In this document: positions 9,284 through 27,461 of the stretch, in pieces
Numbering within the stretch: the first letter of the stretch is position 1
Layout of the letters: each line of letters begins with the position of its first letter
Origin: a virus
Taxonomy: Duplodnaviria; Caudoviricetes
IMG/VR virus record: IMGVR_UViG_3300037782_000160
Coordinates: 1 to 45,356 of that record
Strand: one strand, 5' to 3'
Length of the DNA stretch: 45,356 nucleotides
The notes under the pieces: generated by a model
What the model saw: only the letters and a program-made list of their open reading frames with translations
Told to the model about the DNA's origin: nothing
Databases searched by the model: none
Position numbers and translations under genes: made by a program

Positions 9284-9299
9284 GCTTGGCACGTTAGTA

Positions 9300-9364: not shown

Positions 9365-9370
9365 GATCAT

Positions 9371-9664: not shown

Positions 9665-9669
9665 TTGGG

Positions 9670-10092: not shown

Positions 10093-10385
10093 TTTTTCAT
10101 TCAGACGGTTCTGAGGGCTGTCTGTCAAGTATGCGCGGCGAGTCTTCCTTGCCTGGGTATCGTGGCCCGGGCTCAACCAGTCCGACCTGATCATGGTGGT
10201 TCGCCGCGTGGGATGAGAACCCATCATAGTAGCCACCAAAGGTCGGAAACCTGGGCCTGCGCGAGCCAGATCGCGCACCCAATTCTGCGGGGATTCCATC
10301 ACATCCTCCCGATGGAACCCAGAACCTCAAGGCGCGCGGGGTCTCTCCGCGGAAGCGCGCCATAACCTCACCTGTTGGAGAACTT

Positions 10386-10419
10386 GCCGGCGGCTTTATC
10401 GGTCGCCGGCCTTTTTCTT
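10386..10419 (+). terminator. Intrinsic terminator (tR-like)
   Basis: GCCGGCGGC-TTTATCG-GTCGCCGGC followed by CTTTTTCTT. Confidence 0.65.
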
Positions 10420-10433
10420 GAAAGGACACCGCC

Positions 10434-11407: not shown

Positions 11408-11556
11408 CAGAAGAACAGATCATCAGGAAACGGCTCGCGAAGGGCTATGGCACGGAAGACATCGTTGTGATGGATCGGATCTGTCTCCAGAAGGTCAGGT
11501 TTGTCATCCGAAAACTGCGTGCCACCGGGATTCTCGAGGCGATTTATCGTGTATAG
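11404..11556 (+). CDS. Small HTH-like protein (50 aa, not in ORF track)
   Basis: Manual translation MTEEQIIRKRLAKGYGTEDIVVMDRICLQKVRFVIRKLRATG...; GTGA overlap. Confidence 0.6.
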   Translation: MTEEQIIRKRLAKGYGTEDIVVMDRICLQKVRFVIRKLRATGILEAIYRV

Positions 11557-12994: not shown

Positions 12995-13890
12995 GAAAGA
13001 GAGTACGCCGCGAAGGGCGCCAGTATGCCGCGATCCCGAATGAAGCGATGCGATCAAAGCAGATATCCCTCGAAGCGCGCGGGATGCTGGCTCTGATGAT
13101 GGGATATAGCGACGATTGGGTTTTTTACCGCGCGCATCTCATGGAGATCGCGGGTATCGGTCGCGATAAGTTTCAACGGATCATGGGGGAACTCATGGAA
13201 GCCGGATATGTCTCGCGCGAGTATGTGAAGGACGAAAAGGGTCGGCTTCTCGGGCAGACCTACGTCATCCATGATGAGCCGGTTTCCGAGAGCCTGAAAA
13301 GCCGGTCCTCGGCCGAGGGCCTGGATTCCCGACGGACGGGTGAACCGACGGACGGGTTTTCAGGCCCTATAAGAAAACCAGACTCTAAAGAAAACCAAAC
13401 TAAGGAAGAAAACCAATGCCCCCCAACCCCCAAGGGGGAGGATGATCTTTTCTCAGAATTTGAAGAGAAACAACGAAACGAAGATCCGCCACCTAAAGAT
13501 GAAAGACCAACTGTCGAAGAGCTGTTTAACGAATGGTGGAATCTTTATCCGCGGCGGCCGAACGATCCGAAAAAGCCTGCGCTGGCGAAGTTCAAGGCGG
13601 CGCTGCGAAAGGTTTCCTTCGATGATCTGATGGCGGCGACGCGCGCTTTTGCCGAAACCCGCAGAGGCGAAGACCCCAAGTTCACTCCAATGGCGAAGGC
13701 TTGGCTTCATCAGGAGCGTTGGGACGGGTTTCTTGCGGCGGCAGAGCCACAGGCGCCGCTACGTGATCCTGATGATCCGTTTGTTGGTCTACCGCCAGCG
13801 GTCTTGGAGATCGTCAACCTCGAGATCGGAGAGGAGGCGCGGAGACGTGCTGCCGCCGCGTATTGGGCGCGACGGGAGGCGGCAGAGTGA
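12991..13890 (+). CDS. Phage replication initiator (HTH)
   Basis: YAAIPNE...ISLEARG...ELMEAGY N-terminus; FNEWWNLYPRR...WLHQERW C-terminus; internal iterons. Confidence 0.8.
   Translation: MRKRVRREGRQYAAIPNEAMRSKQISLEARGMLALMMGYSDDWVFYRAHLMEIAGIGRDKFQRIMGELMEAGYVSREYVKDEKGRLLGQTYVIHDEPVSESLKSRSSAEGLDSRRTGEPTDGFSGPIRKPDSKENQTKEENQCPPTPKGEDDLFSEFEEKQRNEDPPPKDERPTVEELFNEWWNLYPRRPNDPKKPALAKFKAALRKVSFDDLMAATRAFAETRRGEDPKFTPMAKAWLHQERWDGFLAAAEPQAPLRDPDDPFVGLPPAVLEIVNLEIGEEARRRAAAAYWARREAAE
13286..13416. repeat. Iterons plus A-rich tract: probable phage ori
   Basis: CCGAG(A/G)GCCTG at 13286 and 13313, inverted copy at 13353-13368, CCGACGGACGGGT at 13329 and 13345, A-rich tract 13369-13416. Confidence 0.7.
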
Positions 13891-14087
13891 AAAACCCAAG
13901 GAACATTTGGGCTCTGAGTGGTTGGGAAACTCTTACGCGCGGCGAGAGGGAGACCTTCGAAGCGGTCTTTGATCGCGTAGGCGGAACCCGGCTCGATGAG
14001 TTCCAAGGCGTTTGTCGGGACAGATCGGTGGAAAGGATGATCCGCACTTTTCGGACTCGCGCCTATCCTTCGATGCTTTGGTGCTAG
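13887..14087 (+). CDS. Hypothetical protein
   Basis: GTGA overlap, GGAGG RBS. Confidence 0.55.
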   Translation: MKNPRNIWALSGWETLTRGERETFEAVFDRVGGTRLDEFQGVCRDRSVERMIRTFRTRAYPSMLWC

Positions 14088-14095
14088 GAGTTACG

Positions 14096-14350
14096 ATGCC
14101 TCGATTACCCAAGATCGCCACCCTCCGCTCGATCGAAGAGATCGAAGGGTTCGCATGGGGCGCTTCCATAAGTGGCCAGTTGCTCACCACAGACGAAGCC
14201 ACGGCGCTGGAAGACCGCTTGAGCGAGTTATCTGGCCATAGCGGCCGGGAAAGGCACCGGCAGGCACTTTCGGTCATTCGAGGTGCAATTGTCGCCCTTG
14301 AGTCGGACCTCGCGAGACCATCACCGAAACAAGGGGCGCTGCCGATATGA
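14096..14350 (+). CDS. Hypothetical protein
   Basis: AGGAG RBS before MPRLPK; ATGA overlap with next gene. Confidence 0.6.
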   Translation: MPRLPKIATLRSIEEIEGFAWGASISGQLLTTDEATALEDRLSELSGHSGRERHRQALSVIRGAIVALESDLARPSPKQGALPI

Positions 14351-14889
14351 GCATAAAGCCGACAAAACATGCGCAGAAAAGCATGAAAAGAGCGCAGGAG
14401 CAGGGCTGGGTGATCGTTGCTGCCTCGGACGAGGACATGATCTGCCGGTGTCCAAGTCGTGGCTGCGGTCTCAAGGCGCGCTTCAAGTTCGGTGACAATA
14501 TCCCGAGTTGCGATCCAGCGCTCAATCGCGACACCTCATCGATCCCAATCGGTAGTTTTTCGGATCTTCGGAAGGTTCTCCGAAGCAGGCGTGAAGAGCT
14601 GCGCTTGTCGATCAACGACACCGAAGAGATCGCGGGCCTATCCGTCGATCATATCGCGAAGATGGAGAAGGATCGGCCTGATCGGATACCCAATCTCGAT
14701 ACGATCATCCATTGGGCGAACGCGCTCGGCCTGGAAATCACCTTGCGACCAACTGAGATGACGCCTTTTGCGCTGCGCCGCTTACAGGAGACCCGCCATT
14801 TGGCCGAACGTCGCGGGCGCAGAATTAGTCAGCTTCGCCGTCGCGGCCCAAGTTCTTCCGGGCGTGGAGGGCAGCACCGCGAAGAGTAG
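14347..14889 (+). CDS. Cys-rich domain plus XRE HTH transcriptional regulator
   Basis: CRCPSRGC; LRSRREELRLSINDTEEIAGLSVDHIAKME...WANALG. Confidence 0.75.
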   Translation: MSIKPTKHAQKSMKRAQEQGWVIVAASDEDMICRCPSRGCGLKARFKFGDNIPSCDPALNRDTSSIPIGSFSDLRKVLRSRREELRLSINDTEEIAGLSVDHIAKMEKDRPDRIPNLDTIIHWANALGLEITLRPTEMTPFALRRLQETRHLAERRGRRISQLRRRGPSSSGRGGQHREE

Positions 14890-15172
14890 TTGCGACTTTG
14901 GCGAGCGACGTGGCGGTTTCGTCAATCGCTTCCATCATGATCACATCCGAATTTCGCTGTAGGGCCCAAGCGTGTAGCAGAAGGATCGCCATCGTTGGCA
15001 CCTCGGCAATCAGCCCGCGCCAGTTAGCGACTGTCGATGTCGCGGCGCCGGTATCGCGGCAAAACTCGGTGCCAAAGCGTTCCGTTCCATAGACCAAAGC
15101 TCCGAGACGCATGAACTCGTCACGCTTCTCTTCCTTGGTCATCTCTTCGATCTTGTCAGCGGTGAGGTGCAT
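14825..15172 (-). CDS. Hypothetical protein, possible HTH
   Basis: GAGGA RBS; FCRDTGAATSTVANWRG HTH-like segment. Confidence 0.6.
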   Translation of the reverse strand: MHLTADKIEEMTKEEKRDEFMRLGALVYGTERFGTEFCRDTGAATSTVANWRGLIAEVPTMAILLLHAWALQRNSDVIMMEAIDETATSLAKVATTLRGAALHARKNLGRDGEAD

Positions 15173-15233
15173 TGTTTTCGATCCTCGCGAGTTGTAGAAC
15201 TGCGCTACCGGGCAACCGGACTTTGCGCAAGGT

Positions 15234-15272
15234 GCCGGTCTCGTCTGTGGTGGGCGAGGCCGGCTTTCTTTT
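15234..15272 (+). terminator. Intrinsic terminator-like hairpin
   Basis: GCCGGTCTCGTC-loop-GGCGAGGCCGGC then TTTCTTTT. Confidence 0.5.
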
Positions 15273-15628
15273 CAGAGAAGGCGCTTGGGTCTTTCTCGCT
15301 TCTCGATCTGGCGTGAGACTCTGCGCGACAGGGCGCGCAGCTCCTCGGTCGTAGAGGCAATCACTCGCTTTTCAAACGTAAGCCAGTCGTATGCTTCCCA
15401 GAGTGCAACGATTGACGAAACCTCGTTCGTGTTTTCGAGGCTTTGACTTAGTTTCTTTATCAATCTCGCTACCTCCGACGAAGAGCGGTCGAATTCGTCG
15501 GTTTGCGACAGAAAAAGAGCGACACTTTGCAAGACCTGTTTGTGAATTCCGTGCGAACGACTCTCGATCGCGATGCGAACCTTATCGACAAGCCGTTGGG
15601 CTCGTTCCTTAGACTTGACCTCAGACAT
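15272..15628 (-). CDS. Hypothetical helical protein
   Basis: AGGA RBS; AT-richer codon usage than neighbours. Confidence 0.6.
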   Translation of the reverse strand: MSEVKSKERAQRLVDKVRIAIESRSHGIHKQVLQSVALFLSQTDEFDRSSSEVARLIKKLSQSLENTNEVSSIVALWEAYDWLTFEKRVIASTTEELRALSRRVSRQIEKRERPKRLL

Positions 15629-15753
15629 ATTCTTTCCTAGCTTCCGTGTCTTAGCGCCTCAAAAGGCCAATTTAGTTGCGGTATCCGTGCAGTCTGCTAA
15701 GTTTACGAGGTAACGCCTCATCAGCATTAGTTGCTGCATCATAGGGTGCCACC

Positions 15754-16188
15754 TCAACCGGCAGCCTCGGGCAGTTTCTCCCATAGCGCAATCTCAGCGG
15801 CGTCCTGCGGCCCGATCCAATCGCTTTGATATGGCGTTTGGCCACCGTCATCGCATTGGCAAGACCAGTCTTCAGACCATTCTGCCCAATCTTCGTGGCG
15901 ATAGTAGTTTCGCCAGACGATAGGATTGCCACTGGTGTCGGTGTCGATCTCTGACCACGCGGGGCGCTTCAAGAGATCGGCCCGCGTTTTTGGGCTGCAC
16001 AGGTGGATTTGTGCACACGACGTCACGTAAGGAGCATCCCAACAATTGCCGTCATCGACCTCCCAAGCGGTGGCAGGGACATCCTCGCAGATAGCGATAG
16101 CCTTGGCGTCGCCAGCATTGGCAGCAACAACCTGGATAAAGGCGCTTTCAGTCACATCGCGAGTGAGGCAGATTTGAAAGGTAGGCAT
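15754..16188 (-). CDS. Hypothetical acidic protein
   Basis: GGAGAGG RBS; WSEDWSCQCDD motif. Confidence 0.7.
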   Translation of the reverse strand: MPTFQICLTRDVTESAFIQVVAANAGDAKAIAICEDVPATAWEVDDGNCWDAPYVTSCAQIHLCSPKTRADLLKRPAWSEIDTDTSGNPIVWRNYYRHEDWAEWSEDWSCQCDDGGQTPYQSDWIGPQDAAEIALWEKLPEAAG

Positions 16189-16191
16189 GGT

Positions 16192-16455
16192 TCAGCCCTC
16201 TCCAGTTTCAGCGTTGAAGTGATCGATGGCGCGGCGAAGAGCTTGTTCGGCGGTTTCGCCCCAAGTCGGTGCGGCGTGGAGCAAGTAGGAGATCGCATCG
16301 CTAACCGCGTCCTCTGGCTCAGTTCCCGTCATCTCGCGCACTGTGGCTGCGAGTTCCTGGCCCCAAGTCATCCGCTTCGCATTCATGTCGTCTGGGTCTT
16401 TGCCGCCATGGATTGGGGTCAGTTCCGCCAATGCAGCGCGTTGATATTCGGTCAT
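16192..16455 (-). CDS. Hypothetical protein
   Basis: GAGAGG RBS; DAVSDAISYLLH...ALRRAIDHFNAE motif. Confidence 0.7.
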   Translation of the reverse strand: MTEYQRAALAELTPIHGGKDPDDMNAKRMTWGQELAATVREMTGTEPEDAVSDAISYLLHAAPTWGETAEQALRRAIDHFNAETGEG

Positions 16456-16539
16456 AGGAAACCTCTCTTTGTGGTGGGTGGTGGTGTCGTGGTTCTGGCC
16501 CACGGGATGCCGCCCCGCGTGGGGGCGGACACCGATGGG

Positions 16540-17139
16540 TCAGGGCTGAATGCGAATGATCTTTGTGTGAACCTTGGCCGCCGCGAATGTGTCGCGCGGC
16601 AATTGCTCCAGCAACAACGCGCCCGGGTGTTTAAAGGTGATTGGCACAAGCGCTACCATCGTCGCGGGCTCTTGGTGTCCGTGTTGCCCCATGAGTGACA
16701 ACGCCGCTTGCACATGCTGCCGCACCTCGCGGAAGGGCGGGTTCATAATCACGCGCGGAAACTGGGCTTTGCCCCGCGCCTCTTCGGCGTAGTCCAGAAA
16801 ACAACGGTGGATCGTCGGGCCAAGCGGACGGCACAAAGCCGCTAGGGCGTGGTGCCGTTCGATCATTGTCAGTTCGCAAGGACTGTGACCGGACGCCAAC
16901 AGGGCCGAGGCAAGGGCGCCGGTGCCCGCGCTCGGCTCCAAGGTGAGATAATCCCCCTGCGGTCCAAGATATTCCACCATGCGTGCCGCGACGTCCTCCG
17001 GGGTAACGTGGCATTCTGTGGCCTTGTCTACCGCGACAGGCTCCGCCAGTTTTACCGGCTCGGGGCGGGGTGTCTCCCGGCGACGTTTTATCGGGATTGC
17101 AATGGGCTTGTCGGGCCGGGTGTAGACGCTGCGCTTCAT
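16540..17139 (-). CDS. Compact SAM-dependent amino-methyltransferase
   Basis: LEPSAGTG (motif I), IMNPPF (motif IV); ATGA-coupled to the DUF3560 gene. Confidence 0.85.
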   Translation of the reverse strand: MKRSVYTRPDKPIAIPIKRRRETPRPEPVKLAEPVAVDKATECHVTPEDVAARMVEYLGPQGDYLTLEPSAGTGALASALLASGHSPCELTMIERHHALAALCRPLGPTIHRCFLDYAEEARGKAQFPRVIMNPPFREVRQHVQAALSLMGQHGHQEPATMVALVPITFKHPGALLLEQLPRDTFAAAKVHTKIIRIQP

Positions 17140-18485
17140 GCCGCTGCCTCCGGTGCGGTGAAGTCTGCCGACTCGGGCGTTGGGTGTGCCTTCTGGTCGG
17201 TGATGAAGATGACCGCCCACCCCACTTGATAGCGTGGGCCGGTGTGGTTCGGGTTCAACGTGATCCGCAAGCGAAACCCACCGCACGCGCTTAGGCGAGT
17301 GCCCTTGTGGTCGCCATAAATCGCTGAATAGTCTGCTTTCGCCATCCGCGCGACGGGTAGGGCCTCGGTCGGCTCTGCTCCACGATAGGTGGCGTGCGAT
17401 TTTACGGCCACAAACCCGGTTGGCGATTCAATATTCAATAGCGGCGGCTTTGCGGGCTTTTTGGCCGGGGGCGTCCACCCGCAAGACTGCATGAGGTCGC
17501 GCCAATCGTCTGCGGAAAGCTCAAGCGACATGCCGTTCCCAATGTGGACAGGCAACGGGGCTTCACATTCCACGATCCAAGAGTCGCCATCGCCTTTGGT
17601 CGCCTTCGGTTTGTCGGCCCCAAATTCGCGCACAAACATTTGAATCGTGGTTGCTTGGATATCGCCCGAAAAGCGCGGCACGTCGCCAAGCATCGAACGT
17701 TCATACGCCAAGCGGTTGAGCGTGTGCGCAATCCAACGGGCATAGTGCGGCCCCTCGATTGTCCGCGTTGCGCTTGCGATAACCTGGCTGCGGGCGTCCT
17801 CCGGGGAAACATCGCCCCGGTCGACCTTCGACCAAAAATCATAGGAAATAGACAGGCCGCCAATCATCTTTTTGATGGTTTCCGGGTTGGTCGTCGCTTC
17901 GAGCAGATCGCGCCGCTTGTGCGCTGAATTGATCGTGCGTTGCAGGTCTCGCAATTCCGCCAATAGCGTTTTAATCCGGCGCGCGCGGACTCGCGGATCA
18001 TTCTTGCGGTTGGCGTGGCGCTCGACGCCTTCGGCGCGGTAGAGCCAGAAATCAGACGCCCGCGACGCCTTCACGGCCTTATCCATGGCCGAGTCCATGC
18101 GTTCCTTGTCCTTCCGGGCCCGTCGCTCGCTGTGGTGGCCTATCAGGATTGGCTGGCCCATGACGAAGCGCTCGGAAAGCTCGTGCGCTGCGCGGCTGAA
18201 TGCGGACGATTCCCGGGCGCGCTTGTCGGCCAGAGCGTCAAGCCGTGCGGCCTTGGCCTGTGCTCGCTCAGCAAGTGTCATCTCTTCGGGCTCGATCTCG
18301 CCCGCCAGTTCAATCGCCAAATCCTCGCGGGCTGGCGTCCATTTGGGCGCGACGAAAAGTTCCTGTTTCGGCGCCCATTTGAAGCCAGCGGCCTTAACCT
18401 TTTCGAAGGTCTCAGCGTCCAACCGTGCGGACGGGTAGAGGCGCAATTTGTTGTCTTCGGGGCTGTATGTCGCTTGAATGTCCAT
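17136..18485 (-). CDS. DUF3560 domain-containing protein
   Basis: ATYSPEDNKLRLY, GFKWAPKQELFVAP, GQPILIGHHSERRARKD signatures. Confidence 0.9.
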   Translation of the reverse strand: MDIQATYSPEDNKLRLYPSARLDAETFEKVKAAGFKWAPKQELFVAPKWTPAREDLAIELAGEIEPEEMTLAERAQAKAARLDALADKRARESSAFSRAAHELSERFVMGQPILIGHHSERRARKDKERMDSAMDKAVKASRASDFWLYRAEGVERHANRKNDPRVRARRIKTLLAELRDLQRTINSAHKRRDLLEATTNPETIKKMIGGLSISYDFWSKVDRGDVSPEDARSQVIASATRTIEGPHYARWIAHTLNRLAYERSMLGDVPRFSGDIQATTIQMFVREFGADKPKATKGDGDSWIVECEAPLPVHIGNGMSLELSADDWRDLMQSCGWTPPAKKPAKPPLLNIESPTGFVAVKSHATYRGAEPTEALPVARMAKADYSAIYGDHKGTRLSACGGFRLRITLNPNHTGPRYQVGWAVIFITDQKAHPTPESADFTAPEAAA

Positions 18486-18488
18486 CGA

Positions 18489-18698
18489 TCAGCCCTCCAC
18501 GACTTCAAAGCATGGGGCGTCGAACTCGGCGGCAAGCGCGTGGCGTAGGCATTGGCCGTACTCGCCAAGTGCAATAGCCAGGCTGGCGGTGCGTTCGCCG
18601 ACCTGCAAGCCATAGCGGACATGATAGCCAAACGCGGTTTGGATCACGGCAATATCAGCGCCGTCTGGTGTGGTGGTTTCAATGATCTTGCGGAGCAT
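18489..18698 (-). CDS. Hypothetical protein
   Basis: AGGAG RBS; YHVRYGLQV...EYGQCLRHAL. Confidence 0.65.
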   Translation of the reverse strand: MLRKIIETTTPDGADIAVIQTAFGYHVRYGLQVGERTASLAIALGEYGQCLRHALAAEFDAPCFEVVEG

Positions 18699-18797
18699 CG
18701 CTGCAAGTCTCCTGTGGTGGTTGTGGTGTGCCTCTATACATACAGTAGCCAGCGACTAAATCAAGCATAAAAATACATAATCCAGAAAAAACCGCCC

Positions 18798-18838
18798 GTG
18801 CATCCGTTTTCGGCCCCGTCAAGCCATATCCTCTGCGC
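18798..18838 (+). promoter_or_regulatory. Putative late promoter (GTGCAT box + TATCCT), leaderless terS
   Basis: Same motif and spacing as 20409, 22270, 26819, 37341, 37908. Confidence 0.6.
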
Positions 18839-19351
18839 ATGAGCACCGCCGTAACGCCCACAATCCCCGCCAGATCGAGCACTAAACCCGCTCCACCGGC
18901 CTCCGTTCGCTCCAAAATCCGCGCCGCCATCGCTTACAAAGTAGATAAATTAACAACAGTAGATGAAGCATGCCGCGAAGCGGGCTGTTCGCCTGCCGGG
19001 TACTACAAGGCAATGAACAAGCCAGAAGTCGCGAAATGGGCAGAGGAACTTGAGGCTTACTATGTTGAGCAAGCCGACAGATTGAGGCGCAGATATCGGG
19101 CTGATGCGATCCATCATGCGCGCAAACTGATGCTTCAAGCCAAGAGCGAGGCCGTGCAGGCAAGGATGGTCGAGTTCCTCGCGCGCGACCCGGAATCGGC
19201 CAGCACATCGATCACGATCAACTCAGGCGGCGGAGCGGTTGGCGTGGGCTATGCTTACGTGCCTCCAGGCGCTCAGGTGGTGAAAGTCACTGATGACGTA
19301 TCAGGTGCTCAAGACGCGCAAGTGATTGAAGGTGAAGCAGAAGATGTGTGA
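18839..19351 (+). CDS. Probable terminase small subunit
   Basis: N-terminal HTH (TVDEACREAGCS...YYKAMNKPEV), SEAVQARMVEFL, IEGE tail; upstream of terL. Confidence 0.7.
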   Translation: MSTAVTPTIPARSSTKPAPPASVRSKIRAAIAYKVDKLTTVDEACREAGCSPAGYYKAMNKPEVAKWAEELEAYYVEQADRLRRRYRADAIHHARKLMLQAKSEAVQARMVEFLARDPESASTSITINSGGGAVGVGYAYVPPGAQVVKVTDDVSGAQDAQVIEGEAEDV

Positions 19352-19620
19352 AGGCGGATCAATCGCCATGATCAGACCGCAAAGGTTACATGATCCAGAT
19401 GCCAGAAACGCGGCGCAATTACAAAGGGGGAGGGGGTCAGATAGGCACCCCCGGGGGCAAAAATCGGCCGGTCGGATCCCTTACTCCACCACCCCACACG
19501 CGCGTCTTTTCATTTTTCTGGTTTCTGTATCTTTTTCTTACAGATTGCAGAAAGTGGTGTGGCTGATCCCCGGGCTGAGACTTTTTCGCATTCTTGAATG
19601 TGTAACTTTGGAGGTTTCTG

Positions 19621-20016
19621 ATGTCTGATGTTATCCCGTTTGATCGTGGTGGTGGCGACGATGATGAGGATCTGATCCTTGTTTGTGATTGTGGCGGGCA
19701 GACGTTCTTCATCCACCAGGGGTGGTTTTGCTGTTCCGCGTGCGATGAGGTTTTGACGGATGATCTCCAGCTATCAAGGAAACTGGTGGGAGCTGAGGTG
19801 GTTGATCGCGAAGCTGGAACTCGTAACCGGACGATCTTTCCATCGGAGGAAATGGCTCAAAGGCGTGTTCTCGCGAGTGTTGGCGCGGACACGGCGGCGA
19901 TTGTGGTGATGAACAAGGATGGCATCACTCATGTCTGGTCGATGGGCGCTGACAGTGAAGAGCAGCGCGAATGGTTTCGGAAGCGCGTGGATGACCTTCT
20001 TGATCAACTGATCTGA
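19621..20016 (+). CDS. Hypothetical Zn-ribbon protein
   Basis: GGAGG RBS; CDCGG...CSACD. Confidence 0.75.
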   Translation: MSDVIPFDRGGGDDDEDLILVCDCGGQTFFIHQGWFCCSACDEVLTDDLQLSRKLVGAEVVDREAGTRNRTIFPSEEMAQRRVLASVGADTAAIVVMNKDGITHVWSMGADSEEQREWFRKRVDDLLDQLI

Positions 20017-20045
20017 TCGTGCATCATCTCAAGAGTGCATCTGGC

Positions 20046-20074
20046 TTGATCAGTGGTTATCTTGGTGCTATACT
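20046..20074 (+). promoter_or_regulatory. Strong sigma70-type promoter for the hammerhead-containing ncRNA
   Basis: TTGATC (20046-20051) N17 TATACT (20069-20074) with extended -10 TG; predicted TSS ~20081 coincides with the first paired base. Confidence 0.75.
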
Positions 20075-20081
20075 TTCATGT

Positions 20082-20282
20082 GCAAGCGGTGTCCTGTCCG
20101 CGTTGGTGTCCCGGTGGGGTTGATAGGGTTCAAGGACACATCTGGCCCGGCATTAAAGCGCCTGACGATTGCTTGAGATAGCATGAAACCCGAAAGGGTC
20201 GCGCGGAGCCCTCCCAGCCGGGGAATAAATGAGGGCCTAGACCCCACGCCAGACCAACGCGGACAGGACACCGAAGGCTTGC
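20082..20282 (+). ncRNA. ~200-nt rod-like ncRNA carrying a hammerhead ribozyme
   Basis: Perfect 21-bp IR 20087-20107/20253-20273 plus nested stems GCAAG/CTTGC, GTGGGGT/ACCCCAC, CCCGGC/GCCGGG. Confidence 0.75.
20158..20204 (+). ncRNA. Type I hammerhead ribozyme; predicted cleavage after C20200
   Basis: GCGC-CUGACGA-U UGCU UGAGAU AGCA U-GAAA-CCC GAAA GGG-UC/GCGC: all conserved core nucleotides, three stems, GUC triplet. Confidence 0.88.
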
Positions 20283-20408
20283 GGCTTTCTGCCGTGTATC
20301 GCCTTGCCTTGCTGTTTCCTGTATTTATGACGTAGCGCCTGCCTTCACGTGAAAGATCACGTTCCACGTGGTTCATTAGTAGGTGAGGGCGGGCTCATCT
20401 AAGACCAC

Positions 20409-20448
20409 GTGCATCTGCGATTTTCGTCTGGCCCTTCACCTTGGGCCT
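20409..20448 (+). promoter_or_regulatory. Putative late promoter (GTGCAT box + CACCTT), leaderless terL
   Basis: GTGCAT 40 nt before ATG 20449; no Shine-Dalgarno. Confidence 0.6.
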
Positions 20449-21966
20449 ATGTCGATTTCATTCACGCCCGAGGGATTGCAGGTTTACGAACCTGATGGCC
20501 CGGTTTTGACCGAAGCCTTTTGGGACCGAAGCGAGTTTTCGGTGATCCAGGGGCCCATTGGGTCTGGCACGTCCTCGATGTGCTGCCACAAGATTTTCGT
20601 GATCTCGTGTGAGCAAGAGCCCGACCGCGAGGGCGTTCGCAAATCACGCTGGCTGATTGTCCGCGAGAGCTATCCGCAGCTTGAAAAGACAACGATCAAG
20701 ACCTGGCTCGATTGGTTTGCCGAAGAGGTGTTTGGCGATTTCCGTCGATCTGTCCCGCCAACACATATGGTCCGGGTTCCGCATCCATCCGGCGATGGTA
20801 CGACCGTCGAGATCGAACTGATCTTCATCGCGATCGACAGCCCGGAGGTGGCTGAGAACATCGCCGCATCATTCGAGATTACCGGTTTCTGGGTCAACGA
20901 GGCTCAGTTTGTCGAGAAAGCGGTCATCGATGAGCTCTTGTCGCGTTGTGGCCGATATCCTCCGCCAAAGGATGGCGCCGGAGCGACCTGGTTCGGTGGG
21001 TTTGCGGACATGAACGCGCCGGTCGAGGGGCATTGGATCCCATACATGCGCGGTGACATTCCGTTGCCCGATGAATGGACCGATGACATGAAAGCCGAGA
21101 TGACGCCGCCGGAAGGGTGGCGGTTCTTCATGCAGCCGCCGGGCCTGATCGAAGTCATGGAAGACGGCCGTCCAACCTATCATCCGAACCCCGCGGCGGA
21201 GAACCAAAAGCATCTCGTTAAGCCGTACATGCAGCAAATCCGCGGCAAGAAGAAATCGTGGATCGATCGGCGTGTTCTGAACAAGACCGGGCTCTACGCC
21301 GAAGGGAAAGCGGTCTATGAGAGCTTTAGCGAGATGGAACACATCTCAGAGGTGGATCTTTACCCAACGCCAGGTGCGACGGTCTTTGTTGGGCTGGACT
21401 TCGGTCGAGATCCCGCGGCGGTGATGGGCCAGTGCTTCCAGGGCGAATGGCGCGTTATGGAAGAATTGATCGGTGACAACGTGTCGGCCGAGATATTTGC
21501 GCCAAAGCTCAAGCGTTTCCTGGCCGAGAAATTCCCCGGGCATGAAATGATCTTCGGTGGCGATCCGCGCGGCCGGGACGGAACACAAGCCACTGAGACC
21601 ACGGCATATGACATCTTTGCAACCCACGGGATGCGCGTCGAGCAGGCTACCACTGATAATGACCCGGAATTACGCCGATCCACTGTCGATAAGGTCTTGG
21701 ACCGGCGGAACGGATTGCAAATCTCGCCGCGGTGTCTGGTGCTGAAAACCGGCATGGCAGGCGGTTATCACTATCCCAAAATCAAGGGCACAACCGGGCT
21801 GTATGCGCCGCGCCCAAAAAAGAACCGCTATTCGCATCCCGTCGAAGCGATGGAGAACATGATGCTGATCGGGGGTGAGGGCGACAACATCGTCCTGGGA
21901 TCACGAACCAGGCCGGCCCCCGCGAAGATGCCGAAGCGAAGAGTGCGGCTTAGGAAGTTCGCATGA
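20449..21966 (+). CDS. terL: Terminase large subunit
   Basis: GPIGSGTS (Walker A-like), WVNEAQ (Walker B), DMNAP, GLDFGRDPAA nuclease motif, KNRYSHPVEA. Confidence 0.92.
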   Translation: MSISFTPEGLQVYEPDGPVLTEAFWDRSEFSVIQGPIGSGTSSMCCHKIFVISCEQEPDREGVRKSRWLIVRESYPQLEKTTIKTWLDWFAEEVFGDFRRSVPPTHMVRVPHPSGDGTTVEIELIFIAIDSPEVAENIAASFEITGFWVNEAQFVEKAVIDELLSRCGRYPPPKDGAGATWFGGFADMNAPVEGHWIPYMRGDIPLPDEWTDDMKAEMTPPEGWRFFMQPPGLIEVMEDGRPTYHPNPAAENQKHLVKPYMQQIRGKKKSWIDRRVLNKTGLYAEGKAVYESFSEMEHISEVDLYPTPGATVFVGLDFGRDPAAVMGQCFQGEWRVMEELIGDNVSAEIFAPKLKRFLAEKFPGHEMIFGGDPRGRDGTQATETTAYDIFATHGMRVEQATTDNDPELRRSTVDKVLDRRNGLQISPRCLVLKTGMAGGYHYPKIKGTTGLYAPRPKKNRYSHPVEAMENMMLIGGEGDNIVLGSRTRPAPAKMPKRRVRLRKFA

Positions 21967-22370
21967 GCCAGCCAAGTGTTTGGTACTTTGCGTTCTATGG
22001 GACGGAGCGAGATCCGCGAAGCTGGTTCGGTCATGTCGATATGTGGGGGTTCGATCCAGACACCGACTCTTGGGTGTTCCTCTCTCCGTCCTATTCCTCA
22101 ATGCCGGTGGAGGTGACGCATATCGCGGAAGAGGTTGATGCGCTCTTTGCGGCCCGTCTCAGTCTCGCGCGCCATGTCCTTCGATATGATCGGGCGGCGG
22201 TGAAAAACGCCCTGCCGCCGGTCACTGTGCAAACCTGCGCCTCGATCTGCGGTCATGTCGTGGGCTTGCGTGCATTCACGCCTTGGGGCCTTCGCAGGAA
22301 ACTCCTCGCAAATGGTGCCGAGGTGTTGAACATTGAGACGTCCGAAGGAAGATCCAGCGGCAAAAGCTGA
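21963..22370 (+). CDS. Podovirus conserved protein, possible permuted papain-like fold
   Basis: FGHV near N-terminus; TC...TPWGLRRKL near C-terminus. Confidence 0.55.
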   Translation: MSQPSVWYFAFYGTERDPRSWFGHVDMWGFDPDTDSWVFLSPSYSSMPVEVTHIAEEVDALFAARLSLARHVLRYDRAAVKNALPPVTVQTCASICGHVVGLRAFTPWGLRRKLLANGAEVLNIETSEGRSSGKS

Positions 22371-22491
22371 GCGTGACCGCGAAAAACGTGTGGCCGAACT
22401 CGAGCGTAAGCGCGCCGCCCAGGACAACTCCGCCTCTCTGACAACCGACTATCGCGCCGTCTACGGCCGTCGATCTCTGTTCGATCTATGA
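22333..22491 (+). CDS. Small basic virion-associated protein (52 aa, TTG start, not in ORF track)
   Basis: GAGGTG RBS; MRRPKEDPAAKAERDRE...GRRSLFDL; ATGA overlap with portal, the usual T7 gp7.3-like position. Confidence 0.65.
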   Translation: MRRPKEDPAAKAERDREKRVAELERKRAAQDNSASLTTDYRAVYGRRSLFDL

Positions 22492-23954
22492 AGCACCTCA
22501 AACCATCCAAAGCGTTTTCGACGCGATACTCGGCCGCGAAGCGCTGGCGTGCCCAGGTTCAGCCTGAGATCAAAGAGGTGCTGCGTTACTGTGCGCCCGA
22601 CCGCGTGAACGAATTCTCCGATGGGACGCAGATTGCAGAGACCGACACCTTCACGTCCATCGGGGAGGAGATGAGCACCGATTTTGCCGGTGATCTGGTG
22701 AATTATTACTTCCCGTCCGAACAGCGATGGAGCGAGCTCGAAGTCATGACGCCGGTCGCGGAGGCAAATGCAGCCGCCGTTGAGAAGCTTGTAAAGGAGC
22801 GAGAGGCAGCGATTTTCGACCTCTTGGACATGTCAAACTTCAACGATCTCAAACCGCAGCTCATGTTCGAGGCTTGTCACGGAACGATGGCCCTTTGGAT
22901 GGACGCCGGCCACTTGACTGAGCCGATATTCATGGAGGTGTTGCCGCCATCCGAGGTCTTGATCACCCCGGGGCACCGGAGGTTTCTTGATCGGTTTCGC
23001 GAGAGTCAGGTGATCGCACAGAACCTCCAAGCCACGCTTCCGAATGCAAACCTTAACGATCCGGCAATCCAGAAGAAGATGGAGCGCGAGGGCGCAACCG
23101 CGAAGGTCTGTTGGGGATACTGGCTTGATTGGTCTGATCCCGGAAATCCGCAATGGCGCCACGAGATCACCATCGACGGAAAGCGCGTTACCGAACCCGA
23201 AATGATCATCGGGCCCATGAATGGTGCCTGCCCAATGCTGGTTGGGCGGTTCAATCCGCGGGTCAAGCATCCCTGGGGTCGGGGCCCGGGCCGGAAGGCG
23301 CTGCCTGATCTATCGACGCTCAACAAGATCGAAGAGGTCGTTCTGACGAAGCTTGATGATCAGCTCGATCCGGCGTGGTCATACATGGATGATGGCGTGA
23401 TGGATCTCAAATATGGGGTAGAGCCAGGCATGGCCTATCCGCGCCGGTCGGCTGAACCACCGGCGCCGCTCCATGACGAGAGCCGCCTAGATTATGGCTT
23501 CTACACAAAGGGTGATCTTGAAGAGCGTGTGCGCGTTGCCTTCTATCAGGATGGTCCACGCCAGCGCGGCGACACCCCGCCCACGGCGTCTCAGTGGGTC
23601 GATGAGCGGCGGCGTGTCCAAGCGCGGCTTGGCAAACCATCAGCGCCAATCGCTACGGAACTTGGCCTGCCGATCATCCAGCGAGCGGAATACCTGGGGG
23701 TGCAACTCGGGATGTTGGAGAGTGCAATCACATTGAACGGCAGCGTGATCAACGTGCGCCCCATATCTCCCATGCAGCGCTCACAAGACCAAGACAAAGC
23801 GATGATCTCGCGCTCCAACATGGATACCGGCCAACAGGTGTTTGGCGATCAGTTCGTCCAAGTCATCGATCCGGTTCAGTCCTATCAGAATTACCTGAAA
23901 GCGACCGGCGATGAGATCATTGTTTTGAGAGAGGCGCCTACTGATGAAGCTTAA
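22488..23954 (+). CDS. Head-to-tail connector (portal), T7/BPP-1 type
   Basis: WGRGPG, PPTASQW, VRPISPM motifs; size and position. Confidence 0.9.
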   Translation: MKHLKPSKAFSTRYSAAKRWRAQVQPEIKEVLRYCAPDRVNEFSDGTQIAETDTFTSIGEEMSTDFAGDLVNYYFPSEQRWSELEVMTPVAEANAAAVEKLVKEREAAIFDLLDMSNFNDLKPQLMFEACHGTMALWMDAGHLTEPIFMEVLPPSEVLITPGHRRFLDRFRESQVIAQNLQATLPNANLNDPAIQKKMEREGATAKVCWGYWLDWSDPGNPQWRHEITIDGKRVTEPEMIIGPMNGACPMLVGRFNPRVKHPWGRGPGRKALPDLSTLNKIEEVVLTKLDDQLDPAWSYMDDGVMDLKYGVEPGMAYPRRSAEPPAPLHDESRLDYGFYTKGDLEERVRVAFYQDGPRQRGDTPPTASQWVDERRRVQARLGKPSAPIATELGLPIIQRAEYLGVQLGMLESAITLNGSVINVRPISPMQRSQDQDKAMISRSNMDTGQQVFGDQFVQVIDPVQSYQNYLKATGDEIIVLREAPTDEA

Positions 23955-24255
23955 ACCGCTCCGGCCGGGCTCCGGGCCAATCCGCAACTATCTCGGCTTT
24001 CTGTCCAAGAAGGAGAGCGAGGATCTCCAGATCATCATCCGAAACCTCTTGTCGACACCGGATGGTGTTATCTTCATGGATTTATTGGAAAAATCGCTTG
24101 TGTTTTCGCCTCTCGGTGTTCGCACAGACCCCCGTGCATTGGAGTTTATGAACGCGCAGTCCTTCATCTTCCACGATTTGAACCGCATCGTGAGTGAGGA
24201 CGCCGCCTATGTTCATCCGCCCAACGAAGAAAGAGATTCTTCGGAACGCTCCTGA
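23944..24255 (+). CDS. Bbp19-like protein
   Basis: LLSTPDGVIFMDLL pattern; lies between portal and scaffold. Confidence 0.6.
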   Translation: MKLKPLRPGSGPIRNYLGFLSKKESEDLQIIIRNLLSTPDGVIFMDLLEKSLVFSPLGVRTDPRALEFMNAQSFIFHDLNRIVSEDAAYVHPPNEERDSSERS

Positions 24256-24949
24256 CAATCCAGGTGGTACGCCGCCGGTTGAGACACCTCCCGTCGAGAC
24301 GCCCCCGGCGCCTGACTTCGGTGCGTTTATCCCCGAAGCGTACAAGGGCGATGATGGCACCTATGACACCGCGAAGTTTCGCGAAGATTTCGACGGTCAC
24401 GCGGCCCGCGCGGGTCAACTCGAAGAAGAACTGACCGAGCTGCGTGGCGCGATCCCAGAAAATGCGACCGGCTATGAAATCGTTGCGCCTGACGAAATCG
24501 ACTTTGGCGAAATTGAAGTGCCGGATTGGTTCGCCTTCGAGCTCGACTCCGAAAGCCCCGTCATCGCGGAAGCTCAAAACTGGCTCCACGAGAACAACGT
24601 TCGCCCCGAGGCCGTACCTGGCTTGATCAGCATGTTCGCGCGGATGAAGGCAGCGGAGGCGGCCGATCATCAGGCGATGGCAAAGGAGCAACGCGACGCC
24701 CTCGGGGCAAATGCCGAATCCCGCATCGCGACGATCAAACGTGCCCTGGAAACCAAGCTGCCCGACGCCGCACAGCGCGACGCCCTGATGAAGGTCGCAG
24801 TGTCCGCTGATGCGGTTCGCGGCCTCGAAAGTTTGCTGAAATCTGGCTCCCAAACGCCAGTGACAACCGCAGATCAAAACGCGGACCTCATGGACCTGCC
24901 GCCCGCCGAACGACTGGTCGAAATCAACCGTCGCTTGGCGGAAAAATGA
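24209..24949 (+). CDS. Capsid assembly scaffolding protein
   Basis: Acidic/Pro-rich, GAIPENATGY motif; directly upstream of capsid; GAGGA RBS. Confidence 0.75.
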   Translation: MFIRPTKKEILRNAPDNPGGTPPVETPPVETPPAPDFGAFIPEAYKGDDGTYDTAKFREDFDGHAARAGQLEEELTELRGAIPENATGYEIVAPDEIDFGEIEVPDWFAFELDSESPVIAEAQNWLHENNVRPEAVPGLISMFARMKAAEAADHQAMAKEQRDALGANAESRIATIKRALETKLPDAAQRDALMKVAVSADAVRGLESLLKSGSQTPVTTADQNADLMDLPPAERLVEINRRLAEK

Positions 24950-24960
24950 AAGGCTGAGAA

Positions 24961-25923
24961 ATGGTTCATACCATTGTCGAATATGCGCGAACGGTTGAAG
25001 ACCCGATGGCGCGCACGATCATCGAACTCTTCCCGGAAGCGGTCGATTTCTACGGGATCCTTCCCTTTAAGCCCGCGCCCGGCGGAGCATATCGCTATCA
25101 TCGCGAAGGCGCGTTGCCGAACAACATCGGCTTCCGCGGGATCAACGAAGAACCCCAAGAAGGCCACGCTGTCTTTAACGATCTCGTTGAGACCTGCTTC
25201 CCGATCGCTGGTAACATCGACGTCGACCGCGTTCTGCTGAATCGTTATGGACCCGAGCGCCGCGCTCGTGAGCAGATCATGGCAATCAAGCGCAAGATGA
25301 AGGTCTGGGCCGATACCTTCATCAAAGGCGACAGTCAGTCATCTCCGACCGAATTTACGGGTCTACAGAACCGGCTGCAAATCGTCGGCGGCGACGTCAG
25401 TGCGTCGAACTATGACTCTCGCGTTGTGGCCAACAGTGTTGCCGCTGGCGGTGGTGCCCTTTCTCTCCAAAAGCTGGATCTCGCAATCCACCACACGGAA
25501 AACCCGACTGCGATCATTATGCCGCGCAAGATCAAGAGCCGTTTCCCGGCCGCGCAGCGAGACACGCAGATTGGGGGCTTCATCACCTTCGATAAGGATG
25601 AGATGGGCCGCCCTGTGACCCGCTATGGTGAATTGCCAGTCTATACCGGCTACGGCATCACTCCGTTTGGCGAGTTCTTGCCCTTCGATGAAGTTCCATA
25701 CGGCGGTGGCGTCGCGAACACCGCGTCGATCTACATCGTCAGCTTCACCGATGGGGGTGTCTGCGGGATCGAGACACTGCCAATGGAAGTCACCGATATC
25801 GGTTTGACCGAAACGGGTGTCTGGCACCGGACCAATGTCGAGCATGACAATGGCCTGGTGGTTGAAGGCGCCTATGCCGCAACCCGAATGACCTCCATCA
25901 CCGACGCACCGATCGTCAAATAA
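24961..25923 (+). CDS. Major capsid protein
   Basis: LPF...LPNNIGFRGINE...FIKGD...EFTGL pattern of BPP-1-like capsids. Confidence 0.88.
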   Translation: MVHTIVEYARTVEDPMARTIIELFPEAVDFYGILPFKPAPGGAYRYHREGALPNNIGFRGINEEPQEGHAVFNDLVETCFPIAGNIDVDRVLLNRYGPERRAREQIMAIKRKMKVWADTFIKGDSQSSPTEFTGLQNRLQIVGGDVSASNYDSRVVANSVAAGGGALSLQKLDLAIHHTENPTAIIMPRKIKSRFPAAQRDTQIGGFITFDKDEMGRPVTRYGELPVYTGYGITPFGEFLPFDEVPYGGGVANTASIYIVSFTDGGVCGIETLPMEVTDIGLTETGVWHRTNVEHDNGLVVEGAYAATRMTSITDAPIVK

Positions 25924-25933
25924 GGAGCCCAAA

Positions 25934-26365
25934 ATGCCTGTTCAAAAAGGATATCCCTTCGACAAGGAGCTTTCGTATCGCGCGAAAGGCTCCGCGGCGG
26001 TGGCGGCCTCCGGCTACGTTGGTACGCAAAAGGACCAAGGCGGTGCAGTCCTCACCGAAATGGTGCTGGTGCTCAACATCGAAGCGATCGATGTTGCCAA
26101 TGGCGATGAGGCGTACACGTTCCGCGTGGTTGGCTCGCAAACCCCCGATCGATCTGATGCGCGGGTGTTGGCCGAATATACGGTTGGTGATGCGGCCGCA
26201 AAGCCGATAGACACCGCCGATGATATGGCCGGCGAGCAGCACGTGATCCAGTTCAATACGCAGCGCGCGGGATACAACCAGCGCTATCTGGATCTGCGCC
26301 TCGACGTGGCTGGCACGACGCCATCGATCACGTTCTCAGCGTTCCTCAGCAAGAAGATGGGGTGA
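25934..26365 (+). CDS. Capsid cement/decoration protein (Bbp16-like)
   Basis: Beta-rich 143 aa after MCP; QRYLDLRLDVAGT motif. Confidence 0.65.
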   Translation: MPVQKGYPFDKELSYRAKGSAAVAASGYVGTQKDQGGAVLTEMVLVLNIEAIDVANGDEAYTFRVVGSQTPDRSDARVLAEYTVGDAAAKPIDTADDMAGEQHVIQFNTQRAGYNQRYLDLRLDVAGTTPSITFSAFLSKKMG

Positions 26366-26369
26366 GCAC

Positions 26370-26765
26370 ATGCCGTTGATGGTCGAACTCAAACCGAACC
26401 CCGCCTATAAGGTGCCTTCCGACGCATCCGCCGCCGACAAGAAGCGATTGGCAGCGGCGTGGAGCCAGATCAAGGCTGAGAAGCCGAAGACCGTGACCGC
26501 CGCGACCGCGAAAGAGGCCGTCATTAACTCCGGCGGGATGTATACCTTCGTTGAGCCAGATGAGCCCGAAACATCGCCGGTCACTGGCGTCTCGTTGGAA
26601 AACATGCCGCTGGAAGACCTCAAGGTGCTCATGTTGCAGCTTGGCGTGAAGACCGAGAAGCAGATGACGCGCAGCCAGGTTATTCAAACCGTTCGCTCGC
26701 GGCTCGATCAGGTGAATGTCGTTGAAGACGATGAACTGATCGAAGAGGACTCAGCGCAGTCCTAA
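26370..26765 (+). CDS. Hypothetical head-operon protein
   Basis: Operon position; C-terminal HeH-like helices. Confidence 0.65.
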   Translation: MPLMVELKPNPAYKVPSDASAADKKRLAAAWSQIKAEKPKTVTAATAKEAVINSGGMYTFVEPDEPETSPVTGVSLENMPLEDLKVLMLQLGVKTEKQMTRSQVIQTVRSRLDQVNVVEDDELIEEDSAQS

Positions 26766-26789
26766 CGGCGGTAGGGCAGTGATGAGAGG

Positions 26790-26816
26790 GGGGTGGGCTT
26801 CGGCTCACCCCTTTTT
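26790..26816 (+). terminator. Intrinsic terminator after head genes
   Basis: GGGGTGGGC-TTCG-GCTCACCCC-TTTTT. Confidence 0.9.
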
Positions 26817-26818
26817 CT

Positions 26819-26858
26819 GTGCATTCGCATCGTTTTGCGCCGGTGACACACTCCGCGC
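26819..26858 (+). promoter_or_regulatory. Putative late promoter (GTGCAT box + TGnCACACT), leaderless tail gene
   Basis: Immediately after terminator; GTGCAT 40 nt before ATG 26859. Confidence 0.65.
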
Positions 26859-27461
26859 ATGGCTACGAATTTCACCAGATTGACCATCATCAACGCGGCG
26901 CTTCTTTCGCAGGGGCAAACAGAGTTGCAAGCCGAAGATGATGGCTCGCTCGAATGGCGCACGCTGGCCGCAAATTGGGCAAACCTCGTGGAGTCCGAGT
27001 TGGAAGACGCCGCGATGGCACATTCCTTTGTCGAGGAAGAACTGCCGGCGCGCGCAGGCGATGGATCCTTTGGGTTTTCTGATCGGTATCTGACACCCTC
27101 GGCCGCGCTCCATGTTCGCGATGTGTGGACGGAGGACGCTTCGGGCGAGAGAACTCGGATAGATTGGTATCAGGGCCGCGACGCCATCCACGTGAATAGC
27201 GCAAACGGTATCTGGTGCGAGTATGTCGATTGCAGCGAAACCACAGACTTTCCTCCGCTCTTCGTCCGCGGGGTGCAGCAATCTCTCGAGGCAATCATTC
27301 TTCGCGCGCTCAAAGAGGAATATGGCAACGCTGACAAAATGGATGCGCGGGCACAATCGCACTTTCAGCGCGCGCGCACATCATCGTCCAATCAAAAGTC
27401 TAAAAGACGGTTCTACTCAAACGAGTCTCGCTTTGTAAGAGCGAGGTTCCGCCGTGGTTAA
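26859..27461 (+). CDS. Tail tubular protein A (adaptor, T7 gp11-like)
   Basis: LTIINAALLSQGQ, HSF, FPPLFV motifs; 200 aa. Confidence 0.8.
   Translation: MATNFTRLTIINAALLSQGQTELQAEDDGSLEWRTLAANWANLVESELEDAAMAHSFVEEELPARAGDGSFGFSDRYLTPSAALHVRDVWTEDASGERTRIDWYQGRDAIHVNSANGIWCEYVDCSETTDFPPLFVRGVQQSLEAIILRALKEEYGNADKMDARAQSHFQRARTSSSNQKSKRRFYSNESRFVRARFRRG

What the first reader, a model, noticed from the sequence alone, without database searches (positions are those of the whole stretch)
20158..20204. Complete type I hammerhead ribozyme between terS and terL
Seen in sequence: stem I GCGC (20158-61/20201-04), core CUGACGA (20162-68), stem II UGCU/AGCA with a UGAGAU hexaloop, GAAA (20185-88), stem III CCC-GAAA-GGG, and a GUC cleavage triplet (cut after 20200). 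Established: this is the hammerhead consensus (C3-G8 pair, G12-A13-A14, A15.1-U16.1, H17); from memory, UGAGAU matches a loop-2 sequence used for tertiary contact in peach latent mosaic viroid hammerheads. Unusual: positions 10.1/11.1 are U-U rather than the usual G-C. Stem I continues through an asymmetric internal loop into CCCGGC/GCCGGG, the geometry needed for a loop II-stem I contact. Hammerheads have been reported in bacteria and prophages, but their function there is largely unknown.
Basis: partly seen in the sequence, partly recalled or inferred. Interest (0 to 1): 0.85.

Follow-up and report, generated by a model that had tools for sequence, protein, structure and literature searches.

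The report
Hammerhead inside symmetric knotted phage RNA
A real hammerhead-type motif in this prophage sits as an optional insert inside a larger, uncatalogued, doubly knotted RNA shared by many unrelated phages, where it is predicted to cut itself and likely frees one half to lock onto a matching half, finishing a small RNA whose job is untested.

Summary
The hammerhead is there as described (1 hit in the window, 0 in 1000 shuffles). Its U10.1·U11.1 pair is a published variant. It is not a free-standing terS–terL element: it is an optional insert in a ~100-nt double-pseudoknot RNA (window 20100-20247). I found 187 distinct copies in unrelated phages: 110 linear with a hammerhead, 24 circularly permuted, 53 without. 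Its helices covary; no Rfam family or paper searched describes it. This scan found the family before on other DNA. Measured here: each half starts with N-CGYNG, and the two N bases (G20100, and G20201, the first base after the cut) are identical in 159 of 166 copies, 33 of 33 short hammerhead-less ones and 26 of 26 held-out copies. After CCA-less tRNA genes the first N sits at tRNA position 75 in 9 of 12 cases. Best reading (0.5): the cut unmasks the second half so a pseudo-symmetric knot matures as a free RNA. Main rival (0.25): the knot is itself a new ribozyme. No cleavage was shown.

The parts
20046..20074 (+). Sigma70-like promoter TTGATC-17-(TG)TATACT; predicted start about 20081
   Evidence: 1 found against 1.2 expected in shuffles, so weak alone, but the predicted start falls at the first base of the closing stem
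20082..20107 (+). 5' arm of the closing stem P0; its inner part also covers N1-CGUUG and the first 2 bases of helix Y
   Evidence: 21 contiguous pairs 20087-20107/20253-20273
20100..20105 (+). Start of half 1: N1 (G20100) + CGUUG; U20104 pairs with A20229
   Evidence: G-C 166, U-A 27 of 195
20106..20111 (+). Helix Y 5' strand (pairs with 20134-20139)
20114..20121 (+). Helix X 5' strand (pseudoknot; pairs with 20240-20247)
20134..20139 (+). Helix Y 3' strand
20140..20145 (+). Nearly invariant AUCUGG junction; CUGG could pair with CUAG 20237-40 (weakly supported)
20146..20151 (+). Helix Z 5' strand (pseudoknot; pairs with 20217-20222)
   Evidence: 22 distinct Z helices, 1168 of 1170 cells paired, partly by the parser's own filter
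20158..20204 (+). Type I hammerhead motif, U10.1.U11.1 variant; predicted cut between C20200 and G20201
20201..20207 (+). Start of half 2: N2 (G20201) + CGCGGA; the first 4 bases double as the 3' strand of hammerhead stem I
20208..20213 (+). Helix W 5' strand (pairs with 20231-20236)
20217..20230 (+). Helix Z 3' strand and conserved loop GAAUAA-M-U (M = A20229)
20231..20247 (+). Helix W 3' strand, CUA linker and helix X 3' strand
20253..20282 (+). 3' arm of the closing stem P0
20333..20398 (+). Separate structured RNA resembling DUF3800-VIII, below the family cut-off; no DUF3800 gene found in this record
   Evidence: 36.9 bits against 40.2, E 9e-5; z -5.2
18839..19351 (+). Probable terminase small subunit (context)
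   Evidence: phrog_2538, E 2.4e-4
19621..20016 (+). 131-aa ORF of no known family between terS and the RNA (context)
20449..21966 (+). Terminase large subunit (context)

Best explanation
An intact type I hammerhead motif sits as an optional insert in the linker between the two look-alike halves of a conserved double-pseudoknot phage RNA, and it is predicted to cut after C20200, which likely frees the start of the second half to dock against the matching start of the first half and finish a free-standing small RNA. Shown by sequence comparison: the hammerhead; helices Y, W, X, Z; the U20104-A20229 pair; the three architectures; the identity of N1 and N2. Inferred: (1) transcription from the promoter at 20046-74 gives a ~200-nt rod closed by P0; (2) stem I masks N2-CGC until the cut, after which this 4-bp stem opens; (3) N1 and N2 form a like-with-like pair on the pseudo-twofold axis; (4) the nicked, knotted product with a 5'-OH end resists decay and acts in trans late in infection, most likely as a nuclease-resistant decoy or binder for a host RNA-directed factor, since it is stocked among tRNA, Y RNA and RNase P genes and has no partner gene of its own. 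Odds: cuts in vitro 0.85; part of the larger motif 0.97; cut serves maturation 0.55; decoy role 0.25.
For: Hammerhead beyond chance. Same flanks around hammerheads in Arthrobacter, Enterobacter, Pectobacterium, Mycobacterium phages and in 15 of 5426 E. coli genomes. 187 distinct copies: 110 linear+hammerhead, 24 permuted+hammerhead, 33 with a 2-6 nt linker, 19 other inserts, 1 permuted without. On 32 hammerhead-less copies 93.8% of cells pair against 74.1% shuffled and 33-53% slid; 19 of 27 pairs change on both sides. N1=N2 in 159 of 166 (0.37 expected from composition; next base out 25 of 166), 33 of 33 short-linker copies, 26 of 26 held-out copies (control 10 of 26). N1 and N2 change 56 and 57 times on a tree, the pair 60 times, so changes are coupled; no third base complementary to N was found. 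Predicted cut directly 5' of N2 in 138 of 195. Discrete unit: closing stem of 9 bp or more in 58 of 146 against 15 shuffled; tRNA within 30 nt in 33 of 187, on both sides in 16; no recurring partner gene among 92 flanking ORFs.
Against: No cleavage was measured. In the window's full rod, stem I has probability only 0.21 and helix Y 0.0 in nested folding, because P0 invades N1-CGUUG; forcing Y+W costs 7.9 kcal/mol (pseudoknot energy not counted). About a quarter of copies have no hammerhead (53 of 195), so the cut is not required; three held-out copies are predicted to cut about 13 nt upstream of N2 and one has a decayed core. RNA contigs of X23 and X24 bridge the site and no joint was seen. 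The N.N pair is inferred from identity alone; 7 of 166 break it. The decoy role rests on neighbourhood only. Copies were found with motif patterns, which inflates apparent invariance.
Confidence: 0.5

Rival explanations
1. The knotted core is itself a second, undescribed self-cleaving ribozyme that cuts just 5' of N1, using N2 as the guide base; the hammerhead cut switches it on. In tRNA arrays it would trim the upstream tRNA as theta ribozymes do.
For: After CCA-less tRNA genes N1 lies one base past the discriminator in 9 of 12 cases and within one base of that in 10 of 12 (gap -1 to +1 in 11 of 12); tRNA-to-tRNA spacers of one base occur in 4 of 33. L001, L005, L137 show the same register by eye. 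Theta ribozymes are defined by such placement (PMC10879173). Many invariant unpaired bases. Compact double pseudoknots are typical of small ribozymes (recalled).
Against: After CCA-encoding tRNAs the gap is 5-28 nt (13 cases). Host RNase Z cuts CCA-less precursors at the discriminator (recalled), which explains the register without new chemistry. Most copies have no tRNA nearby and N1 is internal in permuted copies. The 12 cases are not all independent (four are tRNA-Gly).
Confidence: 0.25
2. A cis-acting mRNA device: the hammerhead splits the late transcript ahead of terL and the knot clamps and protects both new ends, tuning terL against terS (closest to the first reader's view).
For: Lies in late-operon gaps: beside terL in 4 loci, scaffold/major head, portal, capsid/tail, and between Q and holin in E. 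coli prophages. The long-range pair between the 5' motif and a pseudoknot loop recalls exonuclease-resistant RNAs (recalled).
Against: 16 of 187 copies are boxed in by tRNAs on both sides; closing stems and circular permutation point to a discrete RNA; neighbours vary. It does not explain N1=N2.
Confidence: 0.13
3. A natural ligand-gated hammerhead: the knot binds a metabolite or signal and controls cleavage through stem I.
For: Stem I shares bases with the conserved start of half 2; conserved junction bases; alternative folds within 1 kcal/mol.
Against: 53 of 195 copies have no hammerhead; no consistent downstream gene class.
Confidence: 0.07
4. The hammerhead is an inactive or selfish passenger in a tolerant loop.
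For: Presence is scattered on the tree (33 changes against 44 shuffled); some cores are decayed; stem I is weak in the window.
Against: Core and NUH triplet are kept in 138 copies with varied stems, at one register; U3.A8 compensation in phage Gaia.
Confidence: 0.05

Closest known systems
Type I hammerhead ribozymes of phages and prophages (Rfam RF00163; Perreault et al. 2011, PMC3088659)
   Same: Core CUGANGA/GAAA/NUH, three stems, open stem I, phage intergenic site, U10.1-U11.1 variant already reported active.
   Different: Here it is a module inside a larger conserved RNA that also occurs without it or permuted behind it; stem I is only 4 bp and is built from that RNA's own conserved bases.
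PLMVd hammerheads (passage in PMC2632901)
   Same: UGAGAU loop 2 and a UAA element next to stem I.
   Different: Type I and DNA-encoded; loop 2 varies across the family, so the contact is not a family feature.
Theta (minimal HDV-like) ribozymes (Kienbeck et al. 2024, PMC10879173)
   Same: Small double-pseudoknot phage RNAs placed flush against tRNA 3' ends.
   Different: Different helix order, no Rfam HDV-type match, often far from tRNAs, carries a hammerhead; self-cleavage by the knot is untested.
Orphan structured RNAs of phages and bacteria (DUF3800 motifs, drum, ROOL; Weinberg et al. 2017, PMC5737381)
   Same: Widespread, strongly conserved, function unknown.
   Different: No Rfam match to the knot, no partner gene, two look-alike halves with a coupled N.N position.

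Membership tests
Type I hammerhead ribozyme | C3-U4-G5-A6-N7-G8-A9 and G12-A13-A14 core | tested here: met
Type I hammerhead ribozyme | A15.1-U16.1 pair and NUH triplet | tested here: met
   A20188-U20199, GUC 20198-20200
Type I hammerhead ribozyme | Three stems round the core, stem I open | tested here: met
Type I hammerhead ribozyme | G10.1-C11.1 pair (usual, not obligatory) | tested here: not met
   U.U here; a reported natural variant; 12 of 138 family hammerheads
Type I hammerhead ribozyme | Stem I-stem II tertiary contact | tested here: inconclusive
   UGAGAU with UUAAA before stem I fits PLMVd, but only 6 of 18 UGAGAU-type copies have UAA directly before the parsed stem I
Type I hammerhead ribozyme | Site-specific self-cleavage | not testable with these tools
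   contigs cannot show RNA ends
Rfam RF00163 Hammerhead_1 (as a model) | Score at or above the gathering cut-off | tested here: not met
   no hit in the window at E<=10; relative L003 28.7 against 34
Theta / HDV-like ribozyme (for the knot) | Nested P1-P2-P3-P1.1-P4 order with catalytic C in J4/2 | tested here: not met
   helix order is Y,X,Y',Z,W,Z',W',X'; no HDV-type Rfam hit; HDV order recalled
Theta / HDV-like ribozyme (for the knot) | 5' end within 5 nt of a tRNA 3' end | tested here: inconclusive
   true for 11 of 12 copies behind CCA-less tRNAs, not for the window or most copies
Theta / HDV-like ribozyme (for the knot) | Self-cleavage at its 5' end | not testable with these tools
   needs in vitro assay
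DUF3800-VIII RNA (20333-20398) | Score at or above 40.2 bits | tested here: not met
   36.9 bits, E 9e-5, full length
DUF3800-VIII RNA (20333-20398) | DUF3800 gene nearby | tested here: not met
   no PF12686 match in the 45-kb record
Any Rfam 15 family (for the knot) | Covariance-model match | tested here: not met
   window and 35 loci scanned, no match over the knot

The most novel reading that the evidence does not exclude
The knot is a new class of pseudo-symmetric ribozyme working in relay with the hammerhead: the hammerhead cut frees N2, N2 pairs with N1, and the knot cuts 5' of N1. The released piece (window 20100-20200) has a 5'-OH and a cyclic phosphate, and because N1=N2 its own 5' end fits hammerhead stem I (all 4 pairs in 106 of 138 copies), so it can close into a 101-nt, viroid-like RNA circle encoded by a DNA phage.
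Probability: 0.12. Interest if true: 0.95.

Novelty: categorically new. Interest (0 to 1): 0.76.

Why it matters
The hammerhead alone is a new member of a known class. The RNA that holds it matches no catalogued family. The role of hammerheads in phages is an open question (PMC3088659); here well over a hundred share one context and one cut register, which makes a specific job testable. The coupled identity of two distant bases across C, G, U and A is a rare constraint that points either to a symmetric pair in a pseudo-dimeric fold or to strand-exchange chemistry. Copies lie in cultured phages of laboratory hosts (Constance, Karkharias, Gaia), with natural hammerhead-less and permuted controls.

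Tried and rejected
TerL-based locus searches found no relatives, and an exact hammerhead pattern found none in viral contigs; relatives came from blastn and motif patterns. Rfam: no family over the hammerhead or knot in the window. RNA evidence: three metatranscriptome runs hold the region as contigs; one contig (X22) ends at 20193, two (X23, X24) bridge the site, no joints; contigs cover nearly the whole 9000-28500 stretch with many breaks, so the 20193 end is no evidence either way. A partner gene: none recurs; 92 of 116 flanking ORFs were scanned, the rest, mostly from tRNA-array loci, were left out. A third base complementary to N: none at any anchored offset (best balanced score 0.54). 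Helix Z seemed invariant at first; that was my pattern's bias, it varies in held-out copies. CUGG/CUAG pairing: only 2 covarying copies in the first set, about 20 exceptions, left open. HDV-like, pistol and RNase P readings of the knot were considered from recall and dropped on helix order and Rfam. Plasmids: no match. The covariance model R1 handles the hammerhead insert poorly and was not used for counts. One search had helices Y and X off by one base; one search corrects them. The 10.1/11.1 tally was distorted by the pattern; one search replaces it. Literature searches found no description of the knot; the supplement of PMC5737381 could not be read and might hold it.

Full report
Setting. 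The window is a provirus record of a temperate phage: integrase next to a tRNA gene, replication genes, then terS (18839-19351), a 131-aa ORF (19621-20016), a 432-nt gap, and terL from 20449. Close TerL relatives carry names from Rhodobacterales genomes. L201 is identical to the window over all its 1226 bases.

Observation. All hammerhead elements are at the stated places. A descriptor finds this one hit in the window and none in 1000 dinucleotide shuffles. Rfam misses it. U10.1-U11.1 is already reported as a natural variant (PMC3088659, passages). The UGAGAU/UAA match to PLMVd is confirmed by one passage of PMC2632901.

The larger RNA. blastn of the gap hit the same flanks around a hammerhead in Arthrobacter phages (78% over 103 nt) and, in swapped order, in an Enterobacter phage. 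Pattern scans of viral, metagenome and genome contigs gave 304 matches to the 3' half: 187 distinct copies with both halves and 8 distinct without a 5' half found, several cut by contig ends and two apparently chance. Classes: 110 linear with hammerhead, 24 permuted with the hammerhead in front, 33 with a 2-6 nt linker, 19 with another insert, 1 permuted without. Named carriers include phages of Arthrobacter, Mycobacterium, Pectobacterium and Enterobacter, 15 of 5426 E. coli genomes (the one opened lies between Q and holin), and contigs of several phyla.

Anatomy, window coordinates. Half 1: N1 G20100, CGUUG, helix Y (20106-11/20134-39) whose loop gives helix X (20114-21/20240-47), then AUCUGG and the 5' strand of helix Z. 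Then the hammerhead. Half 2: N2 G20201, CGCGGA, helix W (20208-13/20231-36) whose loop gives helix Z (20146-51/20217-22) and GAAUAAAU. Each hairpin loop pairs with the tail of the other half, so the two halves look like a swapped pair. Y and W pairs top the mutual-information list in 167 copies (effective number 48.7), with a single long-range pair U20104-A20229 (G-C 166, U-A 27 of 195). On 32 hammerhead-less copies 93.8% of 864 cells pair, against 74.1% shuffled and 33-53% slid, and 19 of 27 pairs change on both sides (the structure was derived from these sequences, so the margin is inflated). Z varies in held-out copies (22 distinct helices).

The coupled base. N1 and N2 are the same base in 159 of 166 copies (C, G, U and A all occur; 0.37 expected), while the next base out matches in 25 of 166. 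It holds in 33 of 33 short-linker copies, so hammerhead stem I is not the cause. On a FastTree tree of the core N1 changes 56 times, N2 57 and the pair 60; 16 pairs of hammerhead-less copies at 85% identity or more differ in N (the tree is short and poorly resolved). As a held-out test I scanned for the 5' half only: of 115 distinct matches, 54 were dropped as chance (helix Y under 5 of 6 pairs), 12 had no 3' half, 23 were already known and 26 were new; N1=N2 in 26 of 26, control 10 of 26. No third position complementary to N was found. Five of the 7 exceptions are A/C or G/U, the like-with-like combinations that a symmetric trans pair tolerates (recalled; weak, some copies are related). I read this as a direct N.N pair on the pseudo-twofold axis; strand-exchange chemistry is the alternative.

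What the hammerhead does. In 138 of 195 pooled copies the predicted cut is directly 5' of N2 (partly by the parser's definition, 4 more have another register or a decayed core, 53 have none). Stem I is 4 bp and uses N2-CGY as its 3' strand, so it masks the start of half 2 until the cut. In the window a promoter-like site (not above chance alone) predicts a start at about 20081, the first base of a long closing stem (z -4.6 for the region). Against easy maturation here: that stem also covers N1-CGUUG; nested folding gives stem I probability 0.21 and helix Y 0.0, the hammerhead fold lies 0.8 kcal/mol above the minimum and Y+W 7.9 above. The stem reaches N1 in 19 of the 58 copies that have one.

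Context. No partner gene recurs among 92 of 116 flanking ORFs; terL appears at 4 loci. A tRNA lies within 30 nt in 33 of 187 copies, on both sides in 16; Y RNA-like and RNase P RNA genes lie near two copies. Behind CCA-less tRNA genes N1 is at tRNA position 75 in 9 of 12, against one-base spacers in 4 of 33 tRNA-tRNA pairs; behind CCA-encoding genes the gap is 5-28 nt (13 cases). This fits a theta-like cut by the knot (PMC10879173, passages) or a host RNase Z cut (recalled).

Expression. Three metatranscriptome runs hold the region as contigs; they show neither ends nor joints. Cleavage in vivo is not shown.

What is known. Rfam has no match over the knot in the window or 35 loci. Nine paper searches and a text search of 11 supplement files of PMC3088659 did not find it. 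Seen: passages of PMC10085705, PMC5737381, PMC2632901, PMC7151607, PMC10879173; passages and part 1 of the Discussion of PMC3088659. The supplement of PMC5737381 and bioRxiv supplements could not be read and might list the motif. This scan's earlier agents reported the same family on other DNA; I had reached that reading before looking. The lines shown for those notes do not mention the N1=N2 rule or the position-75 register, but I saw only their summaries.

Verdict. The hammerhead is real and ordinary; the RNA that holds it is uncatalogued. Best reading 0.5: cut-triggered maturation of a free, pseudo-symmetric knotted RNA, likely a decoy. Second ribozyme 0.25, cis mRNA device 0.13, ligand-gated hammerhead 0.07, passenger 0.05. 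Interest 0.76.

Noticed in passing
window 20333-20398 +: Full-length DUF3800-VIII-like RNA (36.9 bits, cut-off 40.2) directly behind the knot RNA and 50 nt before terL, with no DUF3800 gene in the record; not seen beside the 35 other copies scanned.
   Followed up: partly
window 20088-20094 and 20105-20111: A 7-base repeat lets both the Y 3' strand and the P0 3' arm pair in two registers, a possible folding switch.
   Followed up: no
L001 1400-1680, L002, L005, L140: tRNA-like elements that ARAGORN and Rfam miss flank the RNA in Arthrobacter phages; phage Judy keeps the upstream one but blastn shows no knot RNA behind it.
   Followed up: partly
L437, L444, L460, L489: Four viral loci share a 5'-half-like motif with a conserved downstream sequence but no recognisable 3' half; possibly a distant sister family or coding sequence.
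   Followed up: no
L405, L450, L486: Sub-family whose hammerhead has a long stem III and is predicted to cut about 13 nt upstream of N2.
   Followed up: no
L137 about 1255-1300 (phage Gaia): Hammerhead with the compensated U3.A8 core variant.
   Followed up: no
L071 1270-1410; L040 2686-3015; L325 146-1360: YrlA-like Y RNA, a phage-borne RNase P RNA and an RNA ligase gene lie near copies of the RNA.
   Followed up: no
window 17136-18485 and 16540-17286, minus strand: DUF3560 protein and a methyltransferase-like ORF lie antisense just upstream of terS.
   Followed up: no
P0070, P0113: TerL relatives of about 845 aa carry a PF14528 homing-endonuclease domain, probably inteins.
   Followed up: no
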